Assembly (NCBI GenBank): GCA_902554325.1
Contig: CACDOH010000001.1
Span: 68,135-132,134, forward strand
Direction: 5' to 3'
Source of the DNA: an uncultured Pelagibacteraceae bacterium
Lineage (GTDB): Bacteria > Pseudomonadota > Alphaproteobacteria > Pelagibacterales > AG-422-B15
DNA length: 64,000 nucleotides
The first letter of the stretch is position 1; the number at the start of each line of letters is the position of its first letter. A program made the position numbers and the translations under genes. The notes under the pieces were generated by a model. It was not told the origin of the DNA. It searched no databases and saw only the letters and a list, made by a program, of their open reading frames with translations. This document shows positions 8,890-32,631 of this stretch, piece after piece.

Positions 8890-9453
8890 TTAATTTGTTC
8901 TTACAGTTACTGATCTTCTATTTTGTGCCCAGGCCTTTTTATTTGAGCCACTATTCACGGGTCTTTCCTTGCCAAAACTGATAGTGGTAACCCTGCTAGA
9001 ACTAATCCCTTGTGTCATCAAATAATCTTTAGCAGCGTTAGCTCTTCGATCACCAAGTGCTAAGTTATATTCTCTCGTTCCTCTTTCATCAGCATGACCT
9101 TCAATCGCTATTGTAACTGATCCATTTGCTTTCAACCATTTCGCCTGTTTTTCTAATGTATTTTGAGCAGCTTTAGTAAGTGAATGGCTGTCGTATGCAA
9201 AAAATATTCTATCAGGAACATCGATCGCTAACATTTCAACAGTATCTGATCCAACATACACACCGTCTTGTATTTCTACAGCTGCGGTTGATGATGATGA
9301 TGATGATGATGATGATGTTGATGATGATGATGCAGTATCTTTTGGCACAGTTTCACAAGCTGCCAAAAACAAAGCAAATAATATAATTACCAAATATCTG
9401 GTATAATTCTGAAAGGTTGAAACCATTTTAATAAACTCCCGTAATATTTTCAA
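8890..9453 (-). CDS. pal: Peptidoglycan-associated lipoprotein Pal (OmpA-like), with a poly-Ser linker
   Basis: Lipobox 'LFLAAC', then S4-T-S9 linker, then OmpA_C domain 'GHADERGTREYNLALGDRRANAAKDYL'. The real start is probably the second ATG at 9426 (GGGAG about 10 nt upstream). Confidence 0.9.
   Translation of the reverse strand: MKILREFIKMVSTFQNYTRYLVIILFALFLAACETVPKDTASSSSTSSSSSSSSSTAAVEIQDGVYVGSDTVEMLAIDVPDRIFFAYDSHSLTKAAQNTLEKQAKWLKANGSVTIAIEGHADERGTREYNLALGDRRANAAKDYLMTQGISSSRVTTISFGKERPVNSGSNKKAWAQNRRSVTVRTN
9289..9330. repeat. Trinucleotide microsatellite (TGA)9-TGT-(TGA)4 on the + strand, equal to (TCA)n Ser codons inside pal
   Basis: Read directly: 'ttgatgatgatgatgatgatgatgatgatgttgatgatgatgatgc'. 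It encodes SSSSTSSSSSSSSS in the Pal linker. Confidence 0.9.
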
Positions 9454-12123: not shown

Positions 12124-12828
12124 TTATTTTGCACTTAGTCCTCTTGAGAAAATGACATTAAACTGCTCTTTAAATCTATACATTCGGGCATTCTCGTCAT
12201 TCACTTGGCTTGTGAAAATATTATAGGCTATTACAGCTGGTATAGCTGCCAGAAGTCCTAGAGCTGTAGCAAAGAGAGCTTCGGCAATCCCTGGTGCCAC
12301 TACTGCTAAGGATGTATTTCTTGATATTGCAATTGACTGAAAAGAATTCATTATCCCCCAAACCGTCCCAAATAGACCGATGAAAGGTGTTGTTGCGCCT
12401 ATAGTTGCGAGATAGCTAAAGTATAGTGAGAGCTTTTCATTTTGATAATCAATTGCGGCTTCCATAATTCGATTAATTCTATCAGTAATGCTGTCGATAT
12501 TTTTTTTAGTATCTTTATTTGATTTTTCAATTTCATCTACTGCCTCAAGAAAAACATACTTTATAGGACTCTCTGAGAGATGATGGGTGGTTGATGCAAT
12601 TTCTTTGATGGTACGTCCTGACCAAAATTCTTCCTCAAATTGTTTGCTGATTTTTTTTAAAGACCTAAAAAGTCGTATTTTATGAATAATTATTGTCCAT
12701 GAGAATATTGATGCTGCAAATAATATAAGAATTACTAACTTCACTACTAAGTCAGCCCTAAAGAAAAGCGACATTAAGGTGAACTCATCGTTTATTTGAC
12801 TTGTACTAATCAGAGCTTCGTTTTCCAT
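12124..12828 (-). CDS. tolQ: TolQ (MotA/TolQ/ExbB proton channel)
   Basis: 234 aa. Three TM segments and '[21 protein letters not shown]', typical of the family. Confidence 0.88.
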
Positions 12829-12867
12829 AATATTATTTTAAAACCAAAAATTGTCTTAAATAGGGCA

Positions 12868-13251
12868 TCAAGTGTTAGTCTTCTTGCTTTCAAGTAAGAT
12901 TTTGTATAGCTCCATAAAGTCATCTAACCTTAAAACGCACAATGAATTACCAGTTGTTTCCCTATTTCTTCTTGTAATTACCACAGGAAATGAGTCTGAT
13001 TTAGATGTTTCAATATTTTCTTCGACTTGCTTAATTGACTCATGGATTTTAAATTTTTCAGTTCTCTTTGCCTCAACGTAAATATGAGGAGTGTTTTTTA
13101 AATCACTTCCTCCTGATGATTTTATTGCTCCACCACCAGACAGTGGCATTCGTTGTACAAGATCATCTCCACCAAAAACTTTTTCGTTAAAATATTTCGC
13201 TAACTCTCTTTCATATCCATCACCTTTTCTTTTTGGAGAGCTACCTGGCAT
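12868..13251 (-). CDS. Small PDDEXK nuclease resembling archaeal/phage Hjc-type Holliday junction resolvases
   Basis: 127 aa. 'KGDGYERELAKYF' (Glu motif), then 'GGSDL...HIYVEAKRT' (D...E-x-K), a spacing like Hjc. Located between yebC and tolQ. Confidence 0.55.
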   Translation of the reverse strand: MPGSSPKRKGDGYERELAKYFNEKVFGGDDLVQRMPLSGGGAIKSSGGSDLKNTPHIYVEAKRTEKFKIHESIKQVEENIETSKSDSFPVVITRRNRETTGNSLCVLRLDDFMELYKILLESKKTNT

Positions 13252-13319: not shown

Positions 13320-14063
13320 TTAAGCAATTCTGCTTAATTCTTCATCGCTTGCCTCAAAATTTGAAAAGATATGTTGAACATCCTCGTCACCATCAAGCTC
13401 ATTTATTAGATTTATAAGTGATTTTAACCTATCACCTTCAACTTTAACTAATATATTTGGTCTCCACTGAAAACCAGATGAGACGGGCTCGCCGTATTTA
13501 GAAGCTAACAAGTCGTAAAACTTTGACAATGCATCAGGTAAGCATACCGTTTCATATTCATCCTCTTCTAAAAAACAATCTTCCGCACCATTTTCAATTG
13601 AGAAGTTAAAAAACTCATCCTCATTTGCAATATCTTTATTGAATTTCAGAAAACCATAATGTTTAAATGCATGAGAAACCGACCCTGTTTCACCTAATGA
13701 TCCACCAAACTTTTGAAACGTTGATCTGACATTAGATGCCGTTCTGTTTCTATTATCAGTCAGTGCCTCAACAATTATAGATGTACCTGCTGGGCCAAAT
13801 CCTTCATATCTCATCTGGTCATAATTAATAGTATCTTTCTCTAAAGACTTTTTTATAGCACGGTCAATATTCTCTTTTGGAAAACTCGATGCCTTTGCAA
13901 GTTGAATGGCCGATCTCAATCTAGCATTTTGATTAGGGTCTGGAGAACCTAACTTTGCTGCAACAGTTATTTCTTTAGATAACTTAGAAAATAGTCCTGC
14001 TCTTTTTTTGTCTTGCGCTCCTTTTCGATATTGAATATTTTTAAACTTAGAGTGACCCGCCAT
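13320..14063 (-). CDS. yebC: YebC/PmpR family DNA-binding regulator
   Basis: 247 aa. 'MAGHSKFKNIQYRKGAQDKKR' N-terminus is diagnostic. Confidence 0.9.
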   Translation of the reverse strand: MAGHSKFKNIQYRKGAQDKKRAGLFSKLSKEITVAAKLGSPDPNQNARLRSAIQLAKASSFPKENIDRAIKKSLEKDTINYDQMRYEGFGPAGTSIIVEALTDNRNRTASNVRSTFQKFGGSLGETGSVSHAFKHYGFLKFNKDIANEDEFFNFSIENGAEDCFLEEDEYETVCLPDALSKFYDLLASKYGEPVSSGFQWRPNILVKVEGDRLKSLINLINELDGDEDVQHIFSNFEASDEELSRIA

Positions 14064-15825: not shown

Positions 15826-16089
15826 TTATGAATCCAATATGTCTTTAATTGTATAAATATTTTCATCAAGCTGAGATGAAATATTTCCGGCAATATTTTT
15901 GAGCTCTAGAAAATCAGATTTTAAGATTTTAATTTCGTTTTCAAGGTGGTTATTTTCACTTAGAAGTTTTGCATTTTCATTTTCTAGAGACGAAACTTTT
16001 TTTGCTTCTTGTGACAATTTTTCAATCTCTCTGCCAAGGTTAGCAATGGTGTTACTGAATTGATCTTTAGTATCTTGATATGTTGACAT
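15826..16089 (-). CDS. Small coiled-coil protein (DUF4164/ZapB-like) abutting zapA
   Basis: 87 aa. Heptad-rich ('ENENAKLLSENNHLENEIKILK'). Its stop abuts the zapA start. Confidence 0.5.
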   Translation of the reverse strand: MSTYQDTKDQFSNTIANLGREIEKLSQEAKKVSSLENENAKLLSENNHLENEIKILKSDFLELKNIAGNISSQLDENIYTIKDILDS

Positions 16090-16253: not shown

Positions 16254-18251
16254 ATGTCTCAAAACTTAAATTCATCTTCTATCCCTCACGAGAATATGGC
16301 AAATGCCATAAGATTCTTATCGATAGACGCAGTGGAGAAAGCTAAGAGCGGACACCCTGGATTGCCAATGGGAATGGCTGATGTTGCTACTATTCTTTTC
16401 ACTAAATTTCTGAAATTTAATTCTGCTGCCCCCAAGTGGCATGATAGAGATAGATTTGTATTATCTGCAGGTCACGGCTCGATGCTTCTGTATTCACTTC
16501 TGTATCTCACTGGTTACCGTGATATGACCATAAAGGATATTAAAAGATTTAGACAACTTAATAGTAAATGTGCAGGTCATCCAGAATATGGACATGCTCA
16601 AGGTATTGAAACAACTACTGGCCCTCTAGGTCAGGGAATAGGAAATGCTGTAGGAATGGCATTAGCTGAAAAAATACTGAACAGCCAATTTGGAGATAAG
16701 ACTGTCGATCACTATACGTACGTAATAGCCAGTGATGGTGACTTGATGGAAGGCATATCTCATGAGGTCGCTTCATTTGCGGGTCATTTGAAGTTAAATA
16801 AGCTAATTGTTTTTTTTGATGATAATGGAGTTTCAATTGACGGACCTGTTAAACTCTCGAATTCTGAAAAGACAACTGACCGCTTTAAGGCCTATGGATG
16901 GAACACAATAAAAATTAATGGGCATAATAAAGATGAAATTATAAAAGCGATAACAAAAGCTAAAAAATCAAAAAAACCTACTCTAATTTCTTGTAAAACA
17001 AAAATTGGATTCGGCTCACCTAACAAACAAGGTAAATCTTCCTCTCATGGTAGTCCACTTGGGGAAGAAGAAGTAAGCTTAACTAGATCCAAACTAAAGT
17101 GGCCCCATAAGCCCTTTGCGGTTCCAACAGATGTATTAAATGAATGGAAAAAGTCTGGCAAGAGATCAACTGATGCATATAAAAAATGGAAAATAGATTT
17201 TGAAAAACTGTCCAAAAAGAAAAAAGATGAATTTGTAAGAAGAATTAGTGGAAATACTCCAAAAAAAGTTAATCTGCTTTTAAGCAAGTTTAAAAAAAAC
17301 TCAATAAAAAAACCAATTGATATAGCAACACGGCAAGCCTCTGAGATGGTGATTAACCAAATTGCACCCATCATGCCAGAATTAGTTGGTGGATCTGCAG
17401 ATCTTACCGGTTCAAACAATACCAAAGGTAACAAAGTGGATGTTATTAATTCAAAAAATTACCGAGGTAATTATATCTATTATGGAATAAGAGAGCATGG
17501 AATGGCAGCCATTATGAATGGCTTATCATTACATAGGGGCATAATACCATTTGGAGGAACATTTTTAATATTTTTAGATTACTGTAAGCCTTCTCTTAGA
17601 CTTGCGGCTCTTATGAAACAGAGGGCTATTTATATTTTAACACATGACTCAATTGGCTTGGGTGAAGATGGCCCAACTCATCAACCAATTGAACAGCTGG
17701 CATCTCTAAGGGCAACGCCAAATGTAAAAGTATTCCGGCCTGCTGATGTTATTGAAACAGCTGAAGCTTGGGAATTGGCTTTATCAAATCAAAAAGGTCC
17801 ATCTGTTATTGCCTTAACTAGACAAAAGCTGCCTATGCTTAGAAAGAAATATTACACAAAAAATATTAGTTCTCAGGGTGCATATGAAATTAAAAGTAAC
17901 TCTAAAAATCCAGATGTTTCAATCTATGCCTCAGGTTCTGAGGTAGAAATAGGTATACAGCTAATGAGTCTACTAGAAAAAAAGAAAAAAAATGTAAGAG
18001 TGATTTCTGTGCCCTGCATGGAGCTATTTAAAATTCAAAATAAGACATATCAAAAAAAGATCAGAGGGAATTCTAAGTTAAATATATCAATTGAAGCAGG
18101 CTCTAGTTTTGGATGGAGTGACATCTCTGGAGGGAATACTGTGAATATATGCATGAAAGATTTTGGAGCCAGCGCTCCCTATCAAAAACTTTATGATTAC
18201 TATGGCTTCACAGCAAAAAAAATATTAAAGCAAGTAATTAAAAAAATATAG
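16254..18251 (+). CDS. tkt: Transketolase
   Basis: 665 aa. 'SGHPGLPMGMADV', 'DGDLMEGISHE' ThDP motif and 'THDSIGLGEDGPTHQPIE'. Confidence 0.95.
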   Translation: MSQNLNSSSIPHENMANAIRFLSIDAVEKAKSGHPGLPMGMADVATILFTKFLKFNSAAPKWHDRDRFVLSAGHGSMLLYSLLYLTGYRDMTIKDIKRFRQLNSKCAGHPEYGHAQGIETTTGPLGQGIGNAVGMALAEKILNSQFGDKTVDHYTYVIASDGDLMEGISHEVASFAGHLKLNKLIVFFDDNGVSIDGPVKLSNSEKTTDRFKAYGWNTIKINGHNKDEIIKAITKAKKSKKPTLISCKTKIGFGSPNKQGKSSSHGSPLGEEEVSLTRSKLKWPHKPFAVPTDVLNEWKKSGKRSTDAYKKWKIDFEKLSKKKKDEFVRRISGNTPKKVNLLLSKFKKNSIKKPIDIATRQASEMVINQIAPIMPELVGGSADLTGSNNTKGNKVDVINSKNYRGNYIYYGIREHGMAAIMNGLSLHRGIIPFGGTFLIFLDYCKPSLRLAALMKQRAIYILTHDSIGLGEDGPTHQPIEQLASLRATPNVKVFRPADVIETAEAWELALSNQKGPSVIALTRQKLPMLRKKYYTKNISSQGAYEIKSNSKNPDVSIYASGSEVEIGIQLMSLLEKKKKNVRVISVPCMELFKIQNKTYQKKIRGNSKLNISIEAGSSFGWSDISGGNTVNICMKDFGASAPYQKLYDYYGFTAKKILKQVIKKI

Positions 18252-18262
18252 GAGTTATCAAA

Positions 18263-19273
18263 ATGGCAGTAAATGTTGCAATTAGTGGGTTTGGAAGAAT
18301 TGGTAGATTAGTTCTTAGATCAATTATAGAGAGTAAACGTAAGGATATTAATGTTGTTGCAATAAATGACTTAGCGCCTGTTGATACAAACGCATTCTTA
18401 CTAGCGAATGATACGGTGCATGGACCTTTAAACGAAAAAATTTCTGTAAAGAAAAACAAAATGACCATTGGAAGGAAAACTATTTTAGTGCTTAATGAAA
18501 GAGATCCACAAAAACTTCCATGGAAAAAAATGAAAATTGACGTAGCACTTGAATGTACTGGTTTATTTACCTCAAAAGAAAAAGCATCTATGCATATCAA
18601 AGCGGGAGCAAAAAAAGTTCTTGTCTCTGCCCCCTGCTCTGAAGCTGATAAAACAATAGTATATGGGGTAAACGAACAAGAAATAACTCGCAATGATCTA
18701 GTTGTTTCGAATGCATCTTGCACTACGAACTGTTTGGCACCAGTAGTTAAAGTTCTTCACGAAAAATTTGGAATTGTTCATGGATATATGACTACCATTC
18801 ATGCATTTACAGGTGACCAAAGTGTTTTGGATACATTTCATCCTGATTTAAGAAGAGCTAGAGCTGCTTCAATGTCAATGATACCTACATCAACAGGTGC
18901 CGCCAAAGCAGTTGGGTTAGTGATGCCAGAATTATCAGGAAAACTAGATGGAACGGCAATTAGAGTGCCAACTCCCAATGTATCACTTATCGATTTTAAA
19001 TTTGTATCAAAAAAAATAATGAAAGTTGATAGCGTAAATAAAGCTATGACCGCTGCGTCACGATCCAATAAATTAAAAGGCATACTTAACGTTAATTCAG
19101 AGCCACTGGTTTCATCAGATTTTAATCATAATCCTGCTTCGTCAAATTTTGACCTGACTCAAACACAAGTCATTGATGGAAAATTTGGAAGAGTTTTAAG
19201 TTGGTATGATAATGAGTGGGGTTTCTCAAATAGAATGTGTGATACTGCAGTAGCAATGAAAAGATCAAAATAG
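18263..19273 (+). CDS. gap: Glyceraldehyde-3-phosphate dehydrogenase
   Basis: 336 aa. 'GFGRIGR' and active site 'SNASCTTNCLAP'. AGGAG SD upstream. Confidence 0.96.
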   Translation: MAVNVAISGFGRIGRLVLRSIIESKRKDINVVAINDLAPVDTNAFLLANDTVHGPLNEKISVKKNKMTIGRKTILVLNERDPQKLPWKKMKIDVALECTGLFTSKEKASMHIKAGAKKVLVSAPCSEADKTIVYGVNEQEITRNDLVVSNASCTTNCLAPVVKVLHEKFGIVHGYMTTIHAFTGDQSVLDTFHPDLRRARAASMSMIPTSTGAAKAVGLVMPELSGKLDGTAIRVPTPNVSLIDFKFVSKKIMKVDSVNKAMTAASRSNKLKGILNVNSEPLVSSDFNHNPASSNFDLTQTQVIDGKFGRVLSWYDNEWGFSNRMCDTAVAMKRSK

Positions 19274-19275
19274 TA

Positions 19276-20472
19276 ATGCTAGATGTCTCTAATCTAAAAA
19301 AAATTACTGAGAAAAATAAAACTATATTAATAAGATTTGATCTTAACGTTCCACTAAATTCTATTGATGAATATATTAGTGATAGAATAATCAGAATTAA
19401 AAAACCTATTTTAGATCTTTTGCATGAAAATCATAAAGTCATTATTTTATCTCACTTGGGTAGACCAAAAGGAGAAATAAAGGATGAACTATCATTGCAA
19501 CAAGTAGTTCCTCAGCTAGAAAAAGTTCTTGAAAAAAAGATAAATTTCTTACCAGATTGTATCGGAAACGAAATAAAAGATAAAATTAATTCCCTTGAAT
19601 ATGGAACAGTTATTTTATTAGAAAACTGTAGATTCTATAAAGAAGAGGAAGAGAATGATCATGACTTTGCAAAAAAATTATCTGAGTTAGCTGATGTTTA
19701 CATAAATGATGCATTTGCCTGTGCGCACCGCGCACATGCATCAATTGAGGCAATATCGCATTTCATGCCTTCATATTGTGGCGATCTTCTTGAAGAAGAA
19801 ATAATTAATTTGCAAGAAGTGATACATGAACCTCTTAGTCCTGCTCTCACAATAATAGGAGGTTCTAAAATATCCACAAAAATTACTGTTCTTAAAAATT
19901 TATCAAAAAAAATGGATACCATTGTCATAGCTGGCGGTATGGCAAATAACTTTTTGAAATACCATGGATATAATATCCAAAAATCATTGCATGAGGAAAA
20001 TGTCGACCACTTAATTACAGAAATATTGGATTTTTCGTCAAAAAATAATTGTAGGTTAGTTTTGCCAATTGATGTGGTCACAGCAGATAAAATTTCAGAC
20101 AAGACAGACACTAAAGAGTCTGAAATTGATAATATTGAAGAACAAAATATGATTCTGGATATAGGCAAAAATACATTGAAGTTAATAAAAAATGAAATTA
20201 GTAAATCTAAAACTGTATTCTGGAATGGTCCACTTGGAGTATTTGAAACTTCTCCGTTTGACAAAGGCACTGTAGAAATTGCAAATTATATTGGCACTCT
20301 AACTGAAAATAATAAAATTAGGTCATTTGCTGGCGGAGGTGATACAATTTCTGCGTTGGATTTAGCCCGTGTGAAAGATAAATTTTCTTATGTTTCTACT
20401 GGCGGTGGTGCATTACTTGAGCTAATAGAAGGTAAGAAATTACCAGGCCTGGTCGCATTAGGAATTTTATAA
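19276..20472 (+). CDS. pgk: Phosphoglycerate kinase
   Basis: 398 aa. 'RFDLNVP', 'SHLGRPKG', 'WNGPLGVFE' and 'STGGGALLE'. Confidence 0.95.
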   Translation: MLDVSNLKKITEKNKTILIRFDLNVPLNSIDEYISDRIIRIKKPILDLLHENHKVIILSHLGRPKGEIKDELSLQQVVPQLEKVLEKKINFLPDCIGNEIKDKINSLEYGTVILLENCRFYKEEEENDHDFAKKLSELADVYINDAFACAHRAHASIEAISHFMPSYCGDLLEEEIINLQEVIHEPLSPALTIIGGSKISTKITVLKNLSKKMDTIVIAGGMANNFLKYHGYNIQKSLHEENVDHLITEILDFSSKNNCRLVLPIDVVTADKISDKTDTKESEIDNIEEQNMILDIGKNTLKLIKNEISKSKTVFWNGPLGVFETSPFDKGTVEIANYIGTLTENNKIRSFAGGGDTISALDLARVKDKFSYVSTGGGALLELIEGKKLPGLVALGIL

Positions 20473-20478
20473 TAGGAG

Positions 20479-21498
20479 ATGAAAATGATACCAAAAACTC
20501 TAGAAGATATTGCAAGCTATATTGTAAAGGACGGCAAAGGAATACTAGCAGCTGACGAAAGCACTGGAACAATAGAAAAAAGATTTAAGTCAATTGACGT
20601 GGAGTCAACTGAAGATAACAGAAGAAAATATAGAGAAATGCTTTTTAGATCTCCCGCTATGGCAGAGGCTATAGGTGGGGTAATTTTATTTGATGAGACC
20701 CTGAGACAAAAAGCAAAAGATGGATCATATTTAAGAGACGTAATTTTAAACCATGGGTCACTTCCTGGAATTAAGGTAGACCAAGGAGTAAAAGAACTGG
20801 AAGATAATTCTAATGAAAAAATCACAACTGGATTAGATGGCCTAAATGAACGTTGTAGAGAATATGATGCATTGGGTGCTAAATTTACTAAATGGAGAGC
20901 GGTAATCAATATTAGCGAAGGCATGCCATCTACAAAATGTATCAATGAAAATATGTTAGCTTTATCCGAGTACGCCCTTATAGCTCAAGAAAATAATATG
21001 GTCCCAATAGTTGAACCTGAAGTCATTATGGATGGTCCGCATACAATAGATCAATGCTATGACGTTACTAAAAATACATTATCTATACTTTTTGAAATGC
21101 TTGATAAAAAAAATATAAATATTAGGGGCACCCTTTTAAAACCTAACATGGTAGTTTCAGGAACAGAGAATAGTCATCAAGCAAATTATAAGGAAGTTGC
21201 AGAAAAAACTCTTGATTGCCTCAGTTTGTCTGTGCCTGATGAATTGCCAGGTATCGTTTTCCTATCGGGTGGTCAATCTGATATTGATGCAACAGCACAC
21301 TTAGATGAGATGAATAAAATTGGAGGGTTTAAATGGAAACTAAGTTTTTCTTATGGAAGAGCATTGCAGCAAGCAGCATTGAAAGCTTGGTTAGGTAATG
21401 ACAGTAATCTAGAACATGCCCAAAAAGCATTTGGCCATCGTGCAATCATGAATATGAAAGCTTCTTTGGGTGAATGGAGCGAGTCACTTGAGGCTTAA
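20479..21498 (+). CDS. fba: Fructose-bisphosphate aldolase, class I
   Basis: 339 aa. 'GKGILAADES.GT..KR', 'LLKPNMV' (Schiff-base Lys region) and 'LSGGQS'. Confidence 0.88.
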   Translation: MKMIPKTLEDIASYIVKDGKGILAADESTGTIEKRFKSIDVESTEDNRRKYREMLFRSPAMAEAIGGVILFDETLRQKAKDGSYLRDVILNHGSLPGIKVDQGVKELEDNSNEKITTGLDGLNERCREYDALGAKFTKWRAVINISEGMPSTKCINENMLALSEYALIAQENNMVPIVEPEVIMDGPHTIDQCYDVTKNTLSILFEMLDKKNINIRGTLLKPNMVVSGTENSHQANYKEVAEKTLDCLSLSVPDELPGIVFLSGGQSDIDATAHLDEMNKIGGFKWKLSFSYGRALQQAALKAWLGNDSNLEHAQKAFGHRAIMNMKASLGEWSESLEA

Positions 21499-32556: not shown

Positions 32557-32631
32557 TGGTGGGCACGGTTGGGATCGAACCAACAACCCCCACGATGTCA
32601 ACGTGATGCTCTACCACTGAGCTACGTGCCC
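32557..32631 (-). tRNA. tRNA-Val (anticodon GAC), CCA encoded
   Basis: Reverse complement: GGGCACGTAGCTCAGTGGTAGAGCATCACGTTGACATCGTGGGGGTTGTTGGTTCGATCCCAACCGTGCCCACCA. It folds as a cloverleaf: 7-bp acceptor stem, GCTC/GAGC D stem, TCACG/CGTGG anticodon stem, loop TTGACAT and T loop TTCGATC. Confidence 0.93.

What the first reader, a model, noticed from the sequence alone, without database searches (positions are those of the whole stretch)
12868..13251. Hjc/PDDEXK-type nuclease sits where ruvC(-ruvA-ruvB-ybgC) is normally found
In many Alphaproteobacteria the block is yebC ... ruvC-ruvA-ruvB-ybgC-tolQ-tolR-tolA-tolB-pal-cpoB-tilS-ftsH. Here the right-hand part is perfectly conserved, but a single 127-aa ORF separates yebC from tolQ.

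That ORF has the E ... D ... E-x-K arrangement ('GYERELAKYF', 'SDL..HIYVEAKR') of archaeal and phage Holliday junction resolvases. This looks like non-orthologous displacement of RuvC, with loss or relocation of RuvAB, in a streamlined genome.
Basis: partly seen in the sequence, partly recalled or inferred. Interest (0 to 1): 0.55.

Follow-up and report, generated by a model that had tools for sequence, protein, structure and literature searches.

The report
Phage-type Holliday junction resolvase replacing ruvCAB
In one deep branch of the ocean bacterium SAR11, a small, strongly conserved nuclease gene of phage origin occupies the exact chromosomal slot where related bacteria keep ruvC-ruvA-ruvB-ybgC, so it is most likely this lineage's enzyme for cutting recombination junctions.

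Summary
Window 12868..13251 (-) is a real 127-aa gene between yebC and tolQ in a SAR11 (Pelagibacterales) genome.

**What the protein is.** It scores above Pfam's cut-off for PF24608 (PDDEXK_15, a phage nuclease family). It keeps the E-R / R / D / E-x-K residues that are catalytic in archaeal Hjc. Its predicted fold matches phage proteins annotated as Holliday junction resolvases. Similarity to solved Hjc structures ranks first but is weak.

**Conservation.** The gene sits in the same position in all 47 related species genomes found. It is under purifying selection as strong as its neighbours (dN/dS 0.044).

**The slot.** An AT-rich sister lineage with the same neighbourhood carries yebC-ruvC-ruvA-ruvB-ybgC-tolQ. 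This shows directly that the four genes were replaced.

**Second replacement.** Genus Pelagibacter (HTCC1062 SAR11_0593) has a different stand-alone resolvase in the same slot, a phage-like RuvC-fold protein.

**Not proven.** Junction cleavage has not been tested. Genome-wide absence of RuvAB in this lineage is not shown; the only whole-genome evidence is a gene table covering about 92% of the locus tags of HTCC1062, a different SAR11 lineage, which lists none.

**Verdict.** A new member of a known enzyme kind, in an evolutionary setting I could not find described in the papers I could search.

The parts
12868..13251 (-). CDS, 127 aa (stop codon 12868-12870): PD-(D/E)xK nuclease of family PF24608 (PDDEXK_15), Hjc-like putative Holliday junction resolvase
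   Evidence: ORF. Pfam PF24608 scores 31.3 bits, above the cut-off of 27. PHROG_244 matches at 8.6e-20. AF2 model has pLDDT 84.8. dN/dS is 0.044.
13198..13233 (-). Residues 7-18, KRKGDGYERELA. A basic N-terminal segment followed by helix 1 carrying E14-R15. These align with Hjc E9/R10 (P. furiosus numbering).
   Evidence: K7, K9, G10 and A18 are invariant, and D11, Y13, E14, R15, E16 are at least 90% conserved, in the 40-sequence alignment A1. The segment is invariant in 39 unique SAR11 sequences. It aligns to 'KRKGSAVERNI' of Hjc 4tkd.
13129..13152 (-). Residues 34-41, RMPLSGGG. This corresponds to the Hjc 'RAPASGS' motif (Hjc R25). It is followed by a Gly/Ser-rich, low-confidence loop.
   Evidence: R34, S38, G39, G40 and G41 are invariant in A1. 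Aligned to RAPASG of Hjc. pLDDT is below 50 for model residues 38-45, which are protein residues 39-46.
13063..13107 (-). Residues 49-63, SDLKNTPHIYVEAKR. Strands 2-3 carry the metal-binding D50 and the E60-x-K62 catalytic pair.
   Evidence: D50, E60, A61, K62 and R63 are invariant in SAR11 and phage homologues. The strand is predicted at model residues 56-62.
12961..12984 (-). Residues 90-97, VVITRRNR. A conserved basic strand. It is a candidate equivalent of Hjc K81 and a DNA-contacting surface (inferred).
   Evidence: R94 is invariant and N96 at least 90% conserved in A1. The segment is invariant in the SAR11 set. The K62-to-R94 spacing of 32 residues compares with 33 for K48-to-K81 in P. 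furiosus Hjc (residues cited in PMC10956419).
13252..13319 (.). 68-nt spacer between yebC and the nuclease gene. This is the left edge of the former ruvC-ruvA-ruvB-ybgC block.
   Evidence: Coordinates. No terminator-like site on the minus strand here. The sister lineage has ruvC starting 29 nt after yebC.
12829..12867 (.). 39-nt spacer between the nuclease gene and tolQ. This is the right edge of the former block. It contains a weak promoter-like match for tolQ.
   Evidence: Coordinates. A 9-of-12 promoter-like site lies at 12859-12832 on the minus strand; the whole-region count is below the shuffle mean, so it is not significant.
13320..14063 (-). yebC (TACO1/YebC family), the conserved left-hand neighbour of ruvC in many bacteria
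   Evidence: E. coli YebC gives tblastn hits in the window and in 45 of the loci. Pfam PF20772/PF01709 on the syntenic gene.
12124..12828 (-). tolQ, first gene of the tol-pal cluster and the right-hand neighbour
   Evidence: Pfam MotA_ExbB on the syntenic gene. 47.5% identical to the TolQ of L179 that follows ruvB-ybgC.

Best explanation
**What it is.** ORF 12868..13251 (-) encodes a small PD-(D/E)xK nuclease. It belongs to a family that is otherwise found in tailed phages, and it is distantly related to archaeal Hjc.

**How it got there.** An ancestor of this SAR11 branch acquired the gene from a phage. It now sits in the chromosomal slot between yebC and tolQ that ancestrally held ruvC-ruvA-ruvB-ybgC, and it became a core gene.

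**Most likely mechanism (inferred).**
- The protein acts as a homodimer that binds four-way DNA junctions.
- Mg2+ is held by E14, D50 and E60, and K62 serves as the catalytic lysine.
- It makes two symmetric nicks that resolve the junction.
- RuvAB is gone from the slot, so branch migration would be supplied by another translocase, most plausibly RecG. This is how the prophage resolvase RusA rescues E. coli ruv mutants.

**Shown.** The gene, its family, conservation of the catalytic residues, its position, purifying selection, and the ancestral content of the slot.

**Inferred.** Dimerisation, junction specificity, partnership with RecG, and genome-wide absence of RuvAB in this lineage.
For: **Family and fold.**
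- PF24608 scores above its cut-off. PHROG_244 matches at 8.6e-20.
- AF2 gives pLDDT 84.8 and an alpha-beta-beta-beta-alpha-beta core.
- Foldseek against viral structures gives E 6e-9 to 1e-4 and TM 0.6-0.78, many of the hits named Holliday junction resolvase.
- The best PDB hits are Hjc chains 2wcw and 2wj0.
- Profile searches hit Hjc 4tkd and the phage Tth15-6 resolvase 7bgs. hhalign to Hjc gives 82%, E 1e-5.

**Catalytic residues.** E14 (E/D, at least 90% conserved), R34, D50, E60, K62 and R94 (all invariant) are conserved across SAR11 and phage homologues. They map onto Hjc residues E9, R25, D33, E46, K48 and K81, which are reported as essential (PMC10956419).

**Position.**
- The gene lies between yebC and tolQ in all 47 species genomes and in closed 1.37-1.39 Mb contigs.
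- The sister lineage L179 has yebC-RuvC-RuvA-RuvB-YbgC-tolQ.
- Pelagibacter-type SAR11 has another stand-alone resolvase in the same slot. Some of those loci still have ybgC after it. The slot therefore retains a resolvase function.

**Selection.** dN/dS is 0.044.

**Phage origin.**
- Homologues at 47-58% identity sit beside terminase, portal, Prim-Pol and integrase genes.
- At least 210 IMG/VR contigs encode relatives, all at 58% identity or less.
- Roseobacter phage CRP-810 has a 49%-identical gene annotated as a Holliday junction resolvase.

**No RuvABC nearby.** The window and the loci hold no RuvA, RuvB, RuvC, RuvC-like protein or YbgC.

**HTCC1062 gene table.** No RuvA or RuvB is listed among SAR11_0001 to about SAR11_1286. 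RecA, RecO and RecG are present.

**Precedents.** An archaeal Hjc complements E. coli strains lacking RuvC, and RusA together with RecG suppresses ruv mutants (PMC10956419).
Against: - No member of PF24608 has been tested biochemically, as far as I could find. The 'resolvase' names on phage homologues are automated.
- The match to Pfam Hjc is below threshold: 13.5 bits against 21.1.
- Foldseek against solved structures is weak: E 0.34, TM 0.42.
- The Hjc profile I could build had only 3 sequences.
- PD-(D/E)xK nucleases have many other activities.
- Genome-wide absence of RuvAB and RuvC was not tested for this lineage. The HTCC1062 table is from another SAR11 genus and lacks about 8% of the locus tags.
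- The RuvB search cannot exclude a divergent SAR11 RuvB.
- In HTCC1062 the slot gene is weakly expressed, about 44 expression units against 1,870 for tolQ. This is compatible with a repair enzyme but uninformative.
Confidence: 0.66

Rival explanations
1. Accessory resolvase. The genome still encodes RuvAB, and perhaps RuvC, at another locus. The PDDEXK protein would then be a second, back-up or specialised junction or fork nuclease, like RusA in E. coli K-12, rather than the replacement.
For: - Only 64 kb of this genome and 20 kb of each related genome could be read.
- The RuvB search listed only the best 120 hits, down to 64% identity, so a fast-evolving SAR11 RuvB could have been missed.
Against: - In the sister lineage ruvCAB sits in this exact slot, and here the slot holds one gene.
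- HTCC1062 lists no RuvA or RuvB among about 92% of its locus tags. Its only 'junction' entries are SAR11_0593 (the slot gene) and SAR11_1079 (yqgF-like).
- No RuvB cluster of SAR11-like size, and none on a contig of 1.3-1.45 Mb, appeared.
- A streamlined 1.3-1.4 Mb genome rarely keeps redundant systems (general knowledge).
Confidence: 0.17
2. A domesticated phage PD-(D/E)xK nuclease with a different job. Candidates are a flap, fork or mismatch nuclease, a restriction-like defence nuclease, or a nuclease tied to YebC or Tol-Pal function. On this view its position in the old ruv slot is an accident of the deletion and insertion.
For: - The PD-(D/E)xK fold supports many activities.
- Similarity to characterised Hjc enzymes is remote.
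- Pfam names the family only 'putative endonuclease'.
Against: - The residues conserved are the Hjc catalytic and DNA-binding set, including the N-terminal KRKG-ER and RAPxSG motifs that are specific to Hjc-type enzymes.
- Phage homologues sit in replication and recombination modules.
- There is no PADLOC match, and no methylase or partner gene nearby.
- The other SAR11 branch keeps an unrelated resolvase fold in the same slot. That argues the slot is selected for resolvase function.
Confidence: 0.13
3. A decaying prophage remnant or spurious ORF with no cellular function.
For: The closest relatives outside SAR11 are phage genes.
Against: - The gene is intact and syntenic in 47 species genomes whose YebC proteins have diverged to about 64%.
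- dN/dS is 0.044.
- All catalytic residues are invariant.
- Composition matches the host.
- There are no other phage genes or an integrase nearby.
Confidence: 0.02

Closest known systems
Archaeal Holliday junction resolvase Hjc (Pfam PF01870; e.g. S. solfataricus 4tkd/1HH1, P. furiosus 1GEF, A. fulgidus 2wcw)
   Same: - Similar size, about 125-140 aa, and the PD-(D/E)xK core.
- The same ordered motifs: N-terminal KRKG, E-R on helix 1, RAPxSG, D, E-x-K, and a later basic residue.
- Hjc chains are the best-ranked PDB structures, and the profile alignment runs motif by motif.
- Hjc is a stand-alone cellular resolvase that can complement E. coli ruvC (PMC10956419).
   Different: - Below Pfam's Hjc threshold: 13.5 bits against 21.1. 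Structural similarity is only TM about 0.42.
- A longer Gly/Ser loop lies between the RxPLSG motif and the catalytic D.
- No C-terminal PCNA-interacting motif.
- Bacterial host and phage ancestry.
Phage family PF24608 (PDDEXK_15) / PHROG_244, e.g. the 'Holliday junction resolvase' of Roseobacter phage CRP-810 (OR671924.1)
   Same: - Same family by curated threshold.
- 47-58% identity.
- Identical catalytic motifs.
- Predicted structures superpose at TM up to 0.78.
   Different: - The phage proteins are 130-190 aa with an acidic C-terminal tail that the SAR11 proteins lack.
- They lie in phage replication modules, not in a conserved chromosomal slot.
- Their function is annotated, not tested.
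Archaeal-like resolvase of Thermus phage Tth15-6 (PDB 7bgs/7bnx; PMC8805305)
   Same: A phage-encoded Hjc-type PD-(D/E)xK enzyme shown to cleave X-shaped DNA. It is a weak profile hit over the N-terminal motif.
   Different: The match is only E 1.2 over about 35 residues. It is 163 aa and comes from a thermophilic phage. It is not the same Pfam family on present evidence.
RusA of the defective prophage DLP12 in E. coli
   Same: The closest functional analogy. RusA is a small phage-derived stand-alone resolvase that substitutes for RuvABC when RecG supplies branch migration (PMC10956419).
   Different: - Unrelated fold and family, with no Pfam RusA match.
- In E. coli it is cryptic and accessory. 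Here the gene is core and sits in the ruv slot.
RecU of Firmicutes and Mollicutes
   Same: The textbook case of a PD-(D/E)xK resolvase replacing RuvC in bacteria.
   Different: - No sequence match to RecU models.
- RecU works with RuvAB, whereas here RuvAB is absent from the locus.
- RecU is larger, about 200 aa.
RuvC-like resolvase of genus Pelagibacter (HTCC1062 SAR11_0593, 'crossover junction endodeoxyribonuclease')
   Same: - The same chromosomal slot between yebC and tolQ in the sister SAR11 branch.
- Also a single stand-alone gene, with RuvA and RuvB missing.
- Also closest to a phage family, PHROG_1770 at 2.8e-36.
   Different: - RNase-H (RuvC) fold rather than PD-(D/E)xK. The two proteins share no detectable similarity.
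- 159-165 aa.

Membership tests
Pfam PF24608 PDDEXK_15 (phage putative PDDEXK endonuclease) | Whole-protein score at or above the curated gathering score | tested here: met
   31.3 bits against a cut-off of 27, E 2.3e-7, covering residues 7-122. PF24608 is also precomputed on most homologues.
PD-(D/E)xK nuclease superfamily | Catalytic signature: an acidic residue on helix 1, D on strand 2, and (D/E)-x-K on strand 3, conserved across the family | tested here: met
   D50, E60 and K62 are invariant, and E14 is E or D in at least 90% of 40 SAR11 and phage sequences. All are invariant in 39 unique SAR11 sequences.
PD-(D/E)xK nuclease superfamily | Alpha-beta-beta-beta-alpha-beta core fold | tested here: inconclusive
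Archaeal Hjc (Pfam PF01870) | Score at or above Pfam's gathering score | tested here: not met
   13.5 bits against a cut-off of 21.1, E 0.069.
Archaeal Hjc (Pfam PF01870) | Equivalents of the residues essential in P. furiosus Hjc (E9, R10, R25, D33, E46, K48, K81), in order | tested here: met
   E14-R15, R34, D50, E60 and K62 align to the Hjc residues in the HMMER and hhalign alignments. R94 lies at the matching spacing. The residue list comes from PMC10956419.
Archaeal Hjc (Pfam PF01870) | Significant profile-profile or structural similarity | tested here: inconclusive
   hhalign gives 82% probability, E 1e-5, but against a 3-sequence Hjc profile. Foldseek's top five hits are Hjc chains at probability 0.35-0.60.
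Holliday junction resolvases (functional class) | Dimeric, Mg2+-dependent, symmetric paired cleavage of four-way junctions | not testable with these tools
   Requires purified protein and synthetic junctions.
RuvC (Pfam PF02075, RNase H fold) | RuvC model match with the D-E-D-D catalytic tetrad | tested here: not met
   No RuvC match at E up to 10. E. coli RuvC and the L179 RuvC give no tblastn hit in the window.
RusA (Pfam PF05866) | RusA model match | tested here: not met
   Not among the Pfam hits at E up to 10. The 'RusA-like' label on PHROG_244 is a functional name.
RecU (Pfam PF03838 / NCBIfam) | RecU model match | tested here: not met
   No Pfam or NCBIfam hit.
Anti-phage defence nucleases (PADLOC-DB) | Match to a defence-system protein model, with partner genes nearby | tested here: not met
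   No PADLOC family at E up to 1. The neighbours are housekeeping genes.

The most novel reading that the evidence does not exclude
SAR11 as a whole has discarded the RuvAB branch-migration motor. At the same chromosomal slot, yebC|tolQ, it has recruited phage stand-alone resolvases of two unrelated folds: RuvC-like in genus Pelagibacter and Hjc-like PD-(D/E)xK in the lineage of this window. The most abundant bacteria in the ocean would then resolve recombination intermediates by a RecG-plus-phage-resolvase route. That could bear on their unusually high recombination rates and on the minimal gene set for homologous recombination.
Probability: 0.45. Interest if true: 0.72.

Novelty: new member of a known kind. 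Interest (0 to 1): 0.58.

Why it matters
RuvABC is close to universal in Proteobacteria, and SAR11 is a model for both genome streamlining and very high recombination.

If the reading holds, this locus is a clean natural case of non-orthologous gene displacement. A four-gene block is reduced to one phage-derived gene in its original position. A sister lineage preserves the ancestral state, and a second SAR11 branch reached a different solution in the same slot.

Three consequences follow:
- It defines a testable minimal junction-processing pathway: RecA, a translocase such as RecG, and a stand-alone resolvase.
- It gives a likely function to an uncharacterised phage family, PF24608, and supplies a small enzyme candidate for biochemistry.
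- It bears on genome annotation and completeness estimates that treat ruvA and ruvB as universal bacterial markers.

NCBI currently labels the protein 'hypothetical', while IMG labels it 'Holliday junction resolvase'.

Tried and rejected

**Hjc profile.** A database search seeded with the S. solfataricus Hjc fragment returned only 2 proteins. The Hjc profile for hhalign was therefore very thin.

**Literature.** Searches for SAR11 or Pelagibacter together with ruvA, ruvB or ruvC found nothing relevant. Two SAR11 genome papers do not mention these genes.

**Supplementary tables.** None were held as text for Grote 2012, Smith 2013 or the 2025 isolate-genome paper, and those of Steindler 2011 and Wilhelm 2007 were uninformative. 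Only PMC12753301 gave a usable HTCC1062 gene table, and that was cut at about SAR11_1286.

**Testing for RuvB elsewhere in SAR11.**
- I searched with the RuvB of the AT-rich sister lineage and looked for clusters of SAR11-like size or contig lengths of 1.37-1.45 Mb. None appeared.
- The list stops at 64% identity, so this is only weak negative evidence.
- Cluster look-ups gave no organism names for that lineage.

**Length of HTCC1062 SAR11_0593.**
- I first suspected it was the same PDDEXK gene with a mis-called start. The reads/expression ratio gives about 497 nt, and none of the PDDEXK loci allows an extended frame.
- The metagenome scan then showed it is a different, RuvC-like gene.

**Readings rejected.**
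- Canonical RuvC, RusA or RecU: no model matches.
- Defence nuclease: no PADLOC hit and no partner genes.
- Recent prophage insertion: no compositional anomaly and no phage genes nearby.
- Structured RNA or tRNA at the locus: none found.

**Transcription signals.** Promoter and terminator scans around the gene were at or below chance level.
Full report
**1. The observation**

The window is AT-rich (30.7% GC). It comes from a SAR11 genome: a 20-kb stretch of Pelagibacterales SAG-MED32 carries an identical copy of the ORF, and 46 further Pelagibacterales/Pelagibacteraceae species genomes carry copies 76-99% identical.

The ORF listing gives a 127-aa ATG ORF at 12868..13251 on the minus strand. 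It lies 68 nt after yebC (13320..14063) and 39 nt before tolQ (12124..12828). Downstream follow tolR, a tolA-like gene, tolB, pal, a TPR (cpoB-like) gene, tilS and ftsH. The Pfam labels come from the syntenic locus L049.

The ORF is a real gene, on four grounds:
- It keeps the order ymdB-yebC-ORF-tolQ-tolR-tolB in all 47 genomes and in closed 1.37-1.39 Mb contigs.
- No locus allows a longer frame.
- Its composition matches the flanks.
- Median pairwise dN/dS is 0.044, against 0.053 for yebC, 0.018 for tolQ and 0.032 for tolR.

**2. What the protein is**

*Sequence matches.* Pfam places it in PF24608, PDDEXK_15 ('phage putative PDDEXK endonuclease'), at 31.3 bits against a cut-off of 27. The Hjc model PF01870 matches below threshold, at 13.5 bits against 21.1. 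PHROGs gives family 244, annotated as a Holliday junction resolvase, at 8.6e-20. The 'RusA-like' wording of that label is functional, because no RusA model matches. NCBIfam, PADLOC and PDB sequences give nothing with the single sequence.

*Conserved residues.* An alignment of 40 SAR11 and phage homologues (A1) shows these invariant or nearly invariant residues, in full-length numbering:
- K7, K9, G10, and E14-R15-E16 on the first helix
- R34, then S38-G39-G40-G41
- D50
- E60-A61-K62-R63, and E65
- R94

All of them are invariant in 39 unique SAR11 sequences.

*Alignment to Hjc.* A profile of A1 aligns to S. solfataricus Hjc (4tkd) motif by motif: KRKG..ER, RAPxSG, then E-x-K. It also touches the phage Tth15-6 resolvase 7bgs. 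Both hits have poor E-values, 0.6 and 1.2. hhalign against the small Hjc alignment I could assemble gives 82% probability, E 1e-5. The conserved residues correspond, in order and with similar spacing, to E9, R10, R25, D33, E46, K48 and K81 of P. furiosus Hjc. A review reports these as essential (PMC10956419).

*Conclusion.* The protein is a member of PF24608 and of the PD-(D/E)xK superfamily. It is Hjc-like in its motifs, but it is not a member of Pfam's Hjc family.

**3. Where it came from**

SAR11 copies are at least 71% identical to each other. Everything else is 58% identical or less.

Those more distant relatives lie in phage or prophage contexts:
- next to a terminase and a portal gene in a 2.8-Mb genome
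- in roughly 55-kb elements with Prim-Pol, an AAA_24 protein, an integrase and a lysozyme
- in Roseobacter phage CRP-810, at 49% identity, annotated as a Holliday junction resolvase
- in at least 210 IMG/VR contigs

The phage proteins carry an acidic C-terminal tail that the SAR11 proteins lack. A single, old acquisition from a phage is the simplest reading. The host-like composition and the depth of the SAR11 clade support this: YebC has diverged to about 64% within it.

**4. What used to be in the slot**

I scanned metagenome contigs with a degenerate TolQ DNA pattern and classified what lies between yebC and tolQ. Three states appeared.

a) *Ancestral state.* An AT-rich (32% GC) marine alphaproteobacterial lineage (L120, and L179/L180 fetched through its RuvB) has a very similar neighbourhood: L31, suhB, efp, zapA, the 5-FTHF cyclo-ligase gene, ymdB and yebC, then RuvC, RuvA, RuvB and a 4HBT thioesterase (ybgC), then tolQ and tolR. 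Its RuvC, RuvA and RuvB are canonical, at 42%, 32% and 54% identity to E. coli.

b) *RuvC-like state.* Of 68 loci that contain both yebC and tolQ, 62 have a single 159-165-aa ORF in the slot. These loci are 28-31% GC.
- The ORF carries GIDPG...E...DA motifs.
- It matches PHROG_1770 ('Holliday junction resolvase') at 2.8e-36.
- It matches Pfam RuvC only at 19.9 bits, below the 22.2 cut-off, and in one of three sequences tested.
- BLASTP against the canonical RuvC of L179 gives no better than E 0.015.
- NCBI and UniRef name it 'crossover junction endodeoxyribonuclease' of Candidatus Pelagibacter.
- It corresponds to HTCC1062 SAR11_0593. The reads-to-expression ratio in a published table implies a length of about 497 nt, which fits.
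- Two loci, L060 and L169, still have ybgC after this gene.

c) *PDDEXK state.* Four loci, L068, L104, L124 and L141, have the PDDEXK gene of this window.

Across four flanking proteins, the RuvC-like and PDDEXK lineages are somewhat closer to each other than either is to the L179 lineage. For TolR the figures are 63.5% against about 50%, and for YmdB 50.7% against about 46%. L179 therefore behaves as an outgroup that preserves the ancestral arrangement.

The slot has thus gone from four genes to one, and the one gene differs in fold between two SAR11 branches. Neither the window nor the 47 related loci contain RuvA, RuvB, RuvC, the RuvC-like protein or YbgC. The only RuvB-like hits fall on the AAA domain of FtsH.

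**5. Is RuvAB gone from the genome?**

I could not read whole genomes, so this is only partly answered.
- The supplementary expression table of PMC12753301 lists HTCC1062 genes from SAR11_0001 to about SAR11_1286.
- It has no 'ruvA', 'ruvB' or 'ruvC'. [quoted passage not shown]
- RecA (0641), RecO (1052), RecG (0993) and an RmuC-like protein (0481) are present.
- That table is for genus Pelagibacter, not the lineage of the window, and about 8% of the locus tags are not visible.
- A protein search seeded with the L120 RuvB found that lineage's own relatives and then Rhodospirillales-type RuvBs at 64-68% identity. It found no cluster of SAR11-like size and none on a 1.3-1.45 Mb contig. A divergent SAR11 RuvB could still lie below the listed 120.

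**6. Most likely mechanism**

*Shown.* A conserved, selected PD-(D/E)xK nuclease with the Hjc residue set sits in the former ruvCAB-ybgC slot.

*Inferred.*
- It dimerises and binds four-way junctions.
- It cuts two opposing strands by metal-ion catalysis through E14, D50, E60 and K62.
- It works as a stand-alone resolvase.
- Branch migration is provided by RecG or another translocase.

Three precedents support these inferences. Archaeal Hjc restores repair to E. coli lacking RuvC. The prophage resolvase RusA suppresses ruvA, ruvB and ruvC mutations in a RecG-dependent way (both summarised in PMC10956419). A phage Hjc-like enzyme cleaves X-shaped DNA (PMC8805305).

No minus-strand terminator separates yebC, the ORF and tolQ, and the promoter-like matches are at chance level. 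Transcription organisation is therefore undetermined. In HTCC1062 the slot gene is expressed about 40-fold lower than tolQ.

**7. Rivals**

- *Accessory nuclease, with RuvAB elsewhere (about 0.17).* Not excluded without complete genomes.
- *A different nuclease activity (about 0.13).* Possible for this fold. It is disfavoured by the Hjc-specific motifs, by the phage replication-module context, and by the unrelated resolvase in the same slot in the sister branch.
- *Prophage remnant (about 0.02).* Contradicted by the conservation and selection data.

**8. Novelty**

The enzyme kind is known. PD-(D/E)xK resolvases include Hjc, RecU and T7 endonuclease I, and phage-derived resolvases substituting for Ruv are known from RusA.

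IMG already auto-labels the protein 'Holliday junction resolvase', while NCBI calls it hypothetical.

The following I could not find in the literature available to me:
- that SAR11 lacks the ruvCAB-ybgC block at its ancestral site
- that a phage PDDEXK_15 gene fills the slot in one deep branch
- that a phage-like RuvC-fold gene fills it in Pelagibacter

I therefore rate it a new member of a known kind, with a noteworthy evolutionary context.

Noticed in passing
Loci L059-L178, e.g. L065 6380-6988 and L060 1233-1730. The equivalent of window 12868-13251 in other SAR11.: Genus Pelagibacter-type SAR11 (HTCC1062 SAR11_0593) has a different gene in the same yebC|tolQ slot. It is a 159-165-aa RuvC-fold protein that matches the phage family PHROG_1770 (2.8e-36) far better than Pfam RuvC (19.9 bits, below cut-off). 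It may itself be a phage-derived replacement of canonical ruvC.
   Followed up: partly
L179 8008-12259 (also L180 and L120): An unnamed AT-rich (32% GC) marine alphaproteobacterial lineage shares the SAR11 neighbourhood but keeps yebC-ruvC-ruvA-ruvB-ybgC-tolQ intact. Its identity was not resolved: cluster look-ups gave no organism names. It looks like a useful outgroup for SAR11 genome reduction.
   Followed up: partly
L060 1723-2136; L169 1715-2128: Some Pelagibacter-type contigs retain ybgC (a 4HBT thioesterase) between the RuvC-like gene and tolQ. This shows that ruvAB and ybgC were lost in separate steps.
   Followed up: partly
Alignment A1, columns about 140-232 (phage homologues such as P0082, P0095, P0104, P0108): Phage members of the family carry a 20-60-residue acidic C-terminal extension. 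It ends in a short conserved hydrophobic motif (e.g. LKLVV or LSPLNGG), which might be a clamp- or SSB-binding tail. All SAR11 copies lack it.
   Followed up: no
window 8890..9453 (-): The Pal/OmpA-family lipoprotein has a run of about 16 Ser/Thr residues (SSSSTSSSSSSSSSTA) just after the signal/lipobox region. It is mirrored by a spurious poly-Met ORF on the opposite strand (9180..9386 +).
   Followed up: no
window 16254..21498 (+), compared with L179 1833-5099: In SAR11 the block tkt-gap-pgk-fba lies between zapA and efp. The sister lineage has no such block there, and it has a MotA/ExbB-like plus OmpA-like gene pair between L31 and suhB. The neighbourhood has therefore been remodelled on that side as well.
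   Followed up: no
window 15826..16089 (-): An 87-aa coiled-coil-looking ORF directly upstream of zapA has no Pfam hit in the syntenic loci. It is conserved in position in SAR11 and may be a ZapB-like partner.
   Followed up: no
window 32557..32631 (-): A tRNA-Val (GAC) gene is the only RNA gene that Rfam or ARAGORN detects in the 64-kb window.
   Followed up: yes
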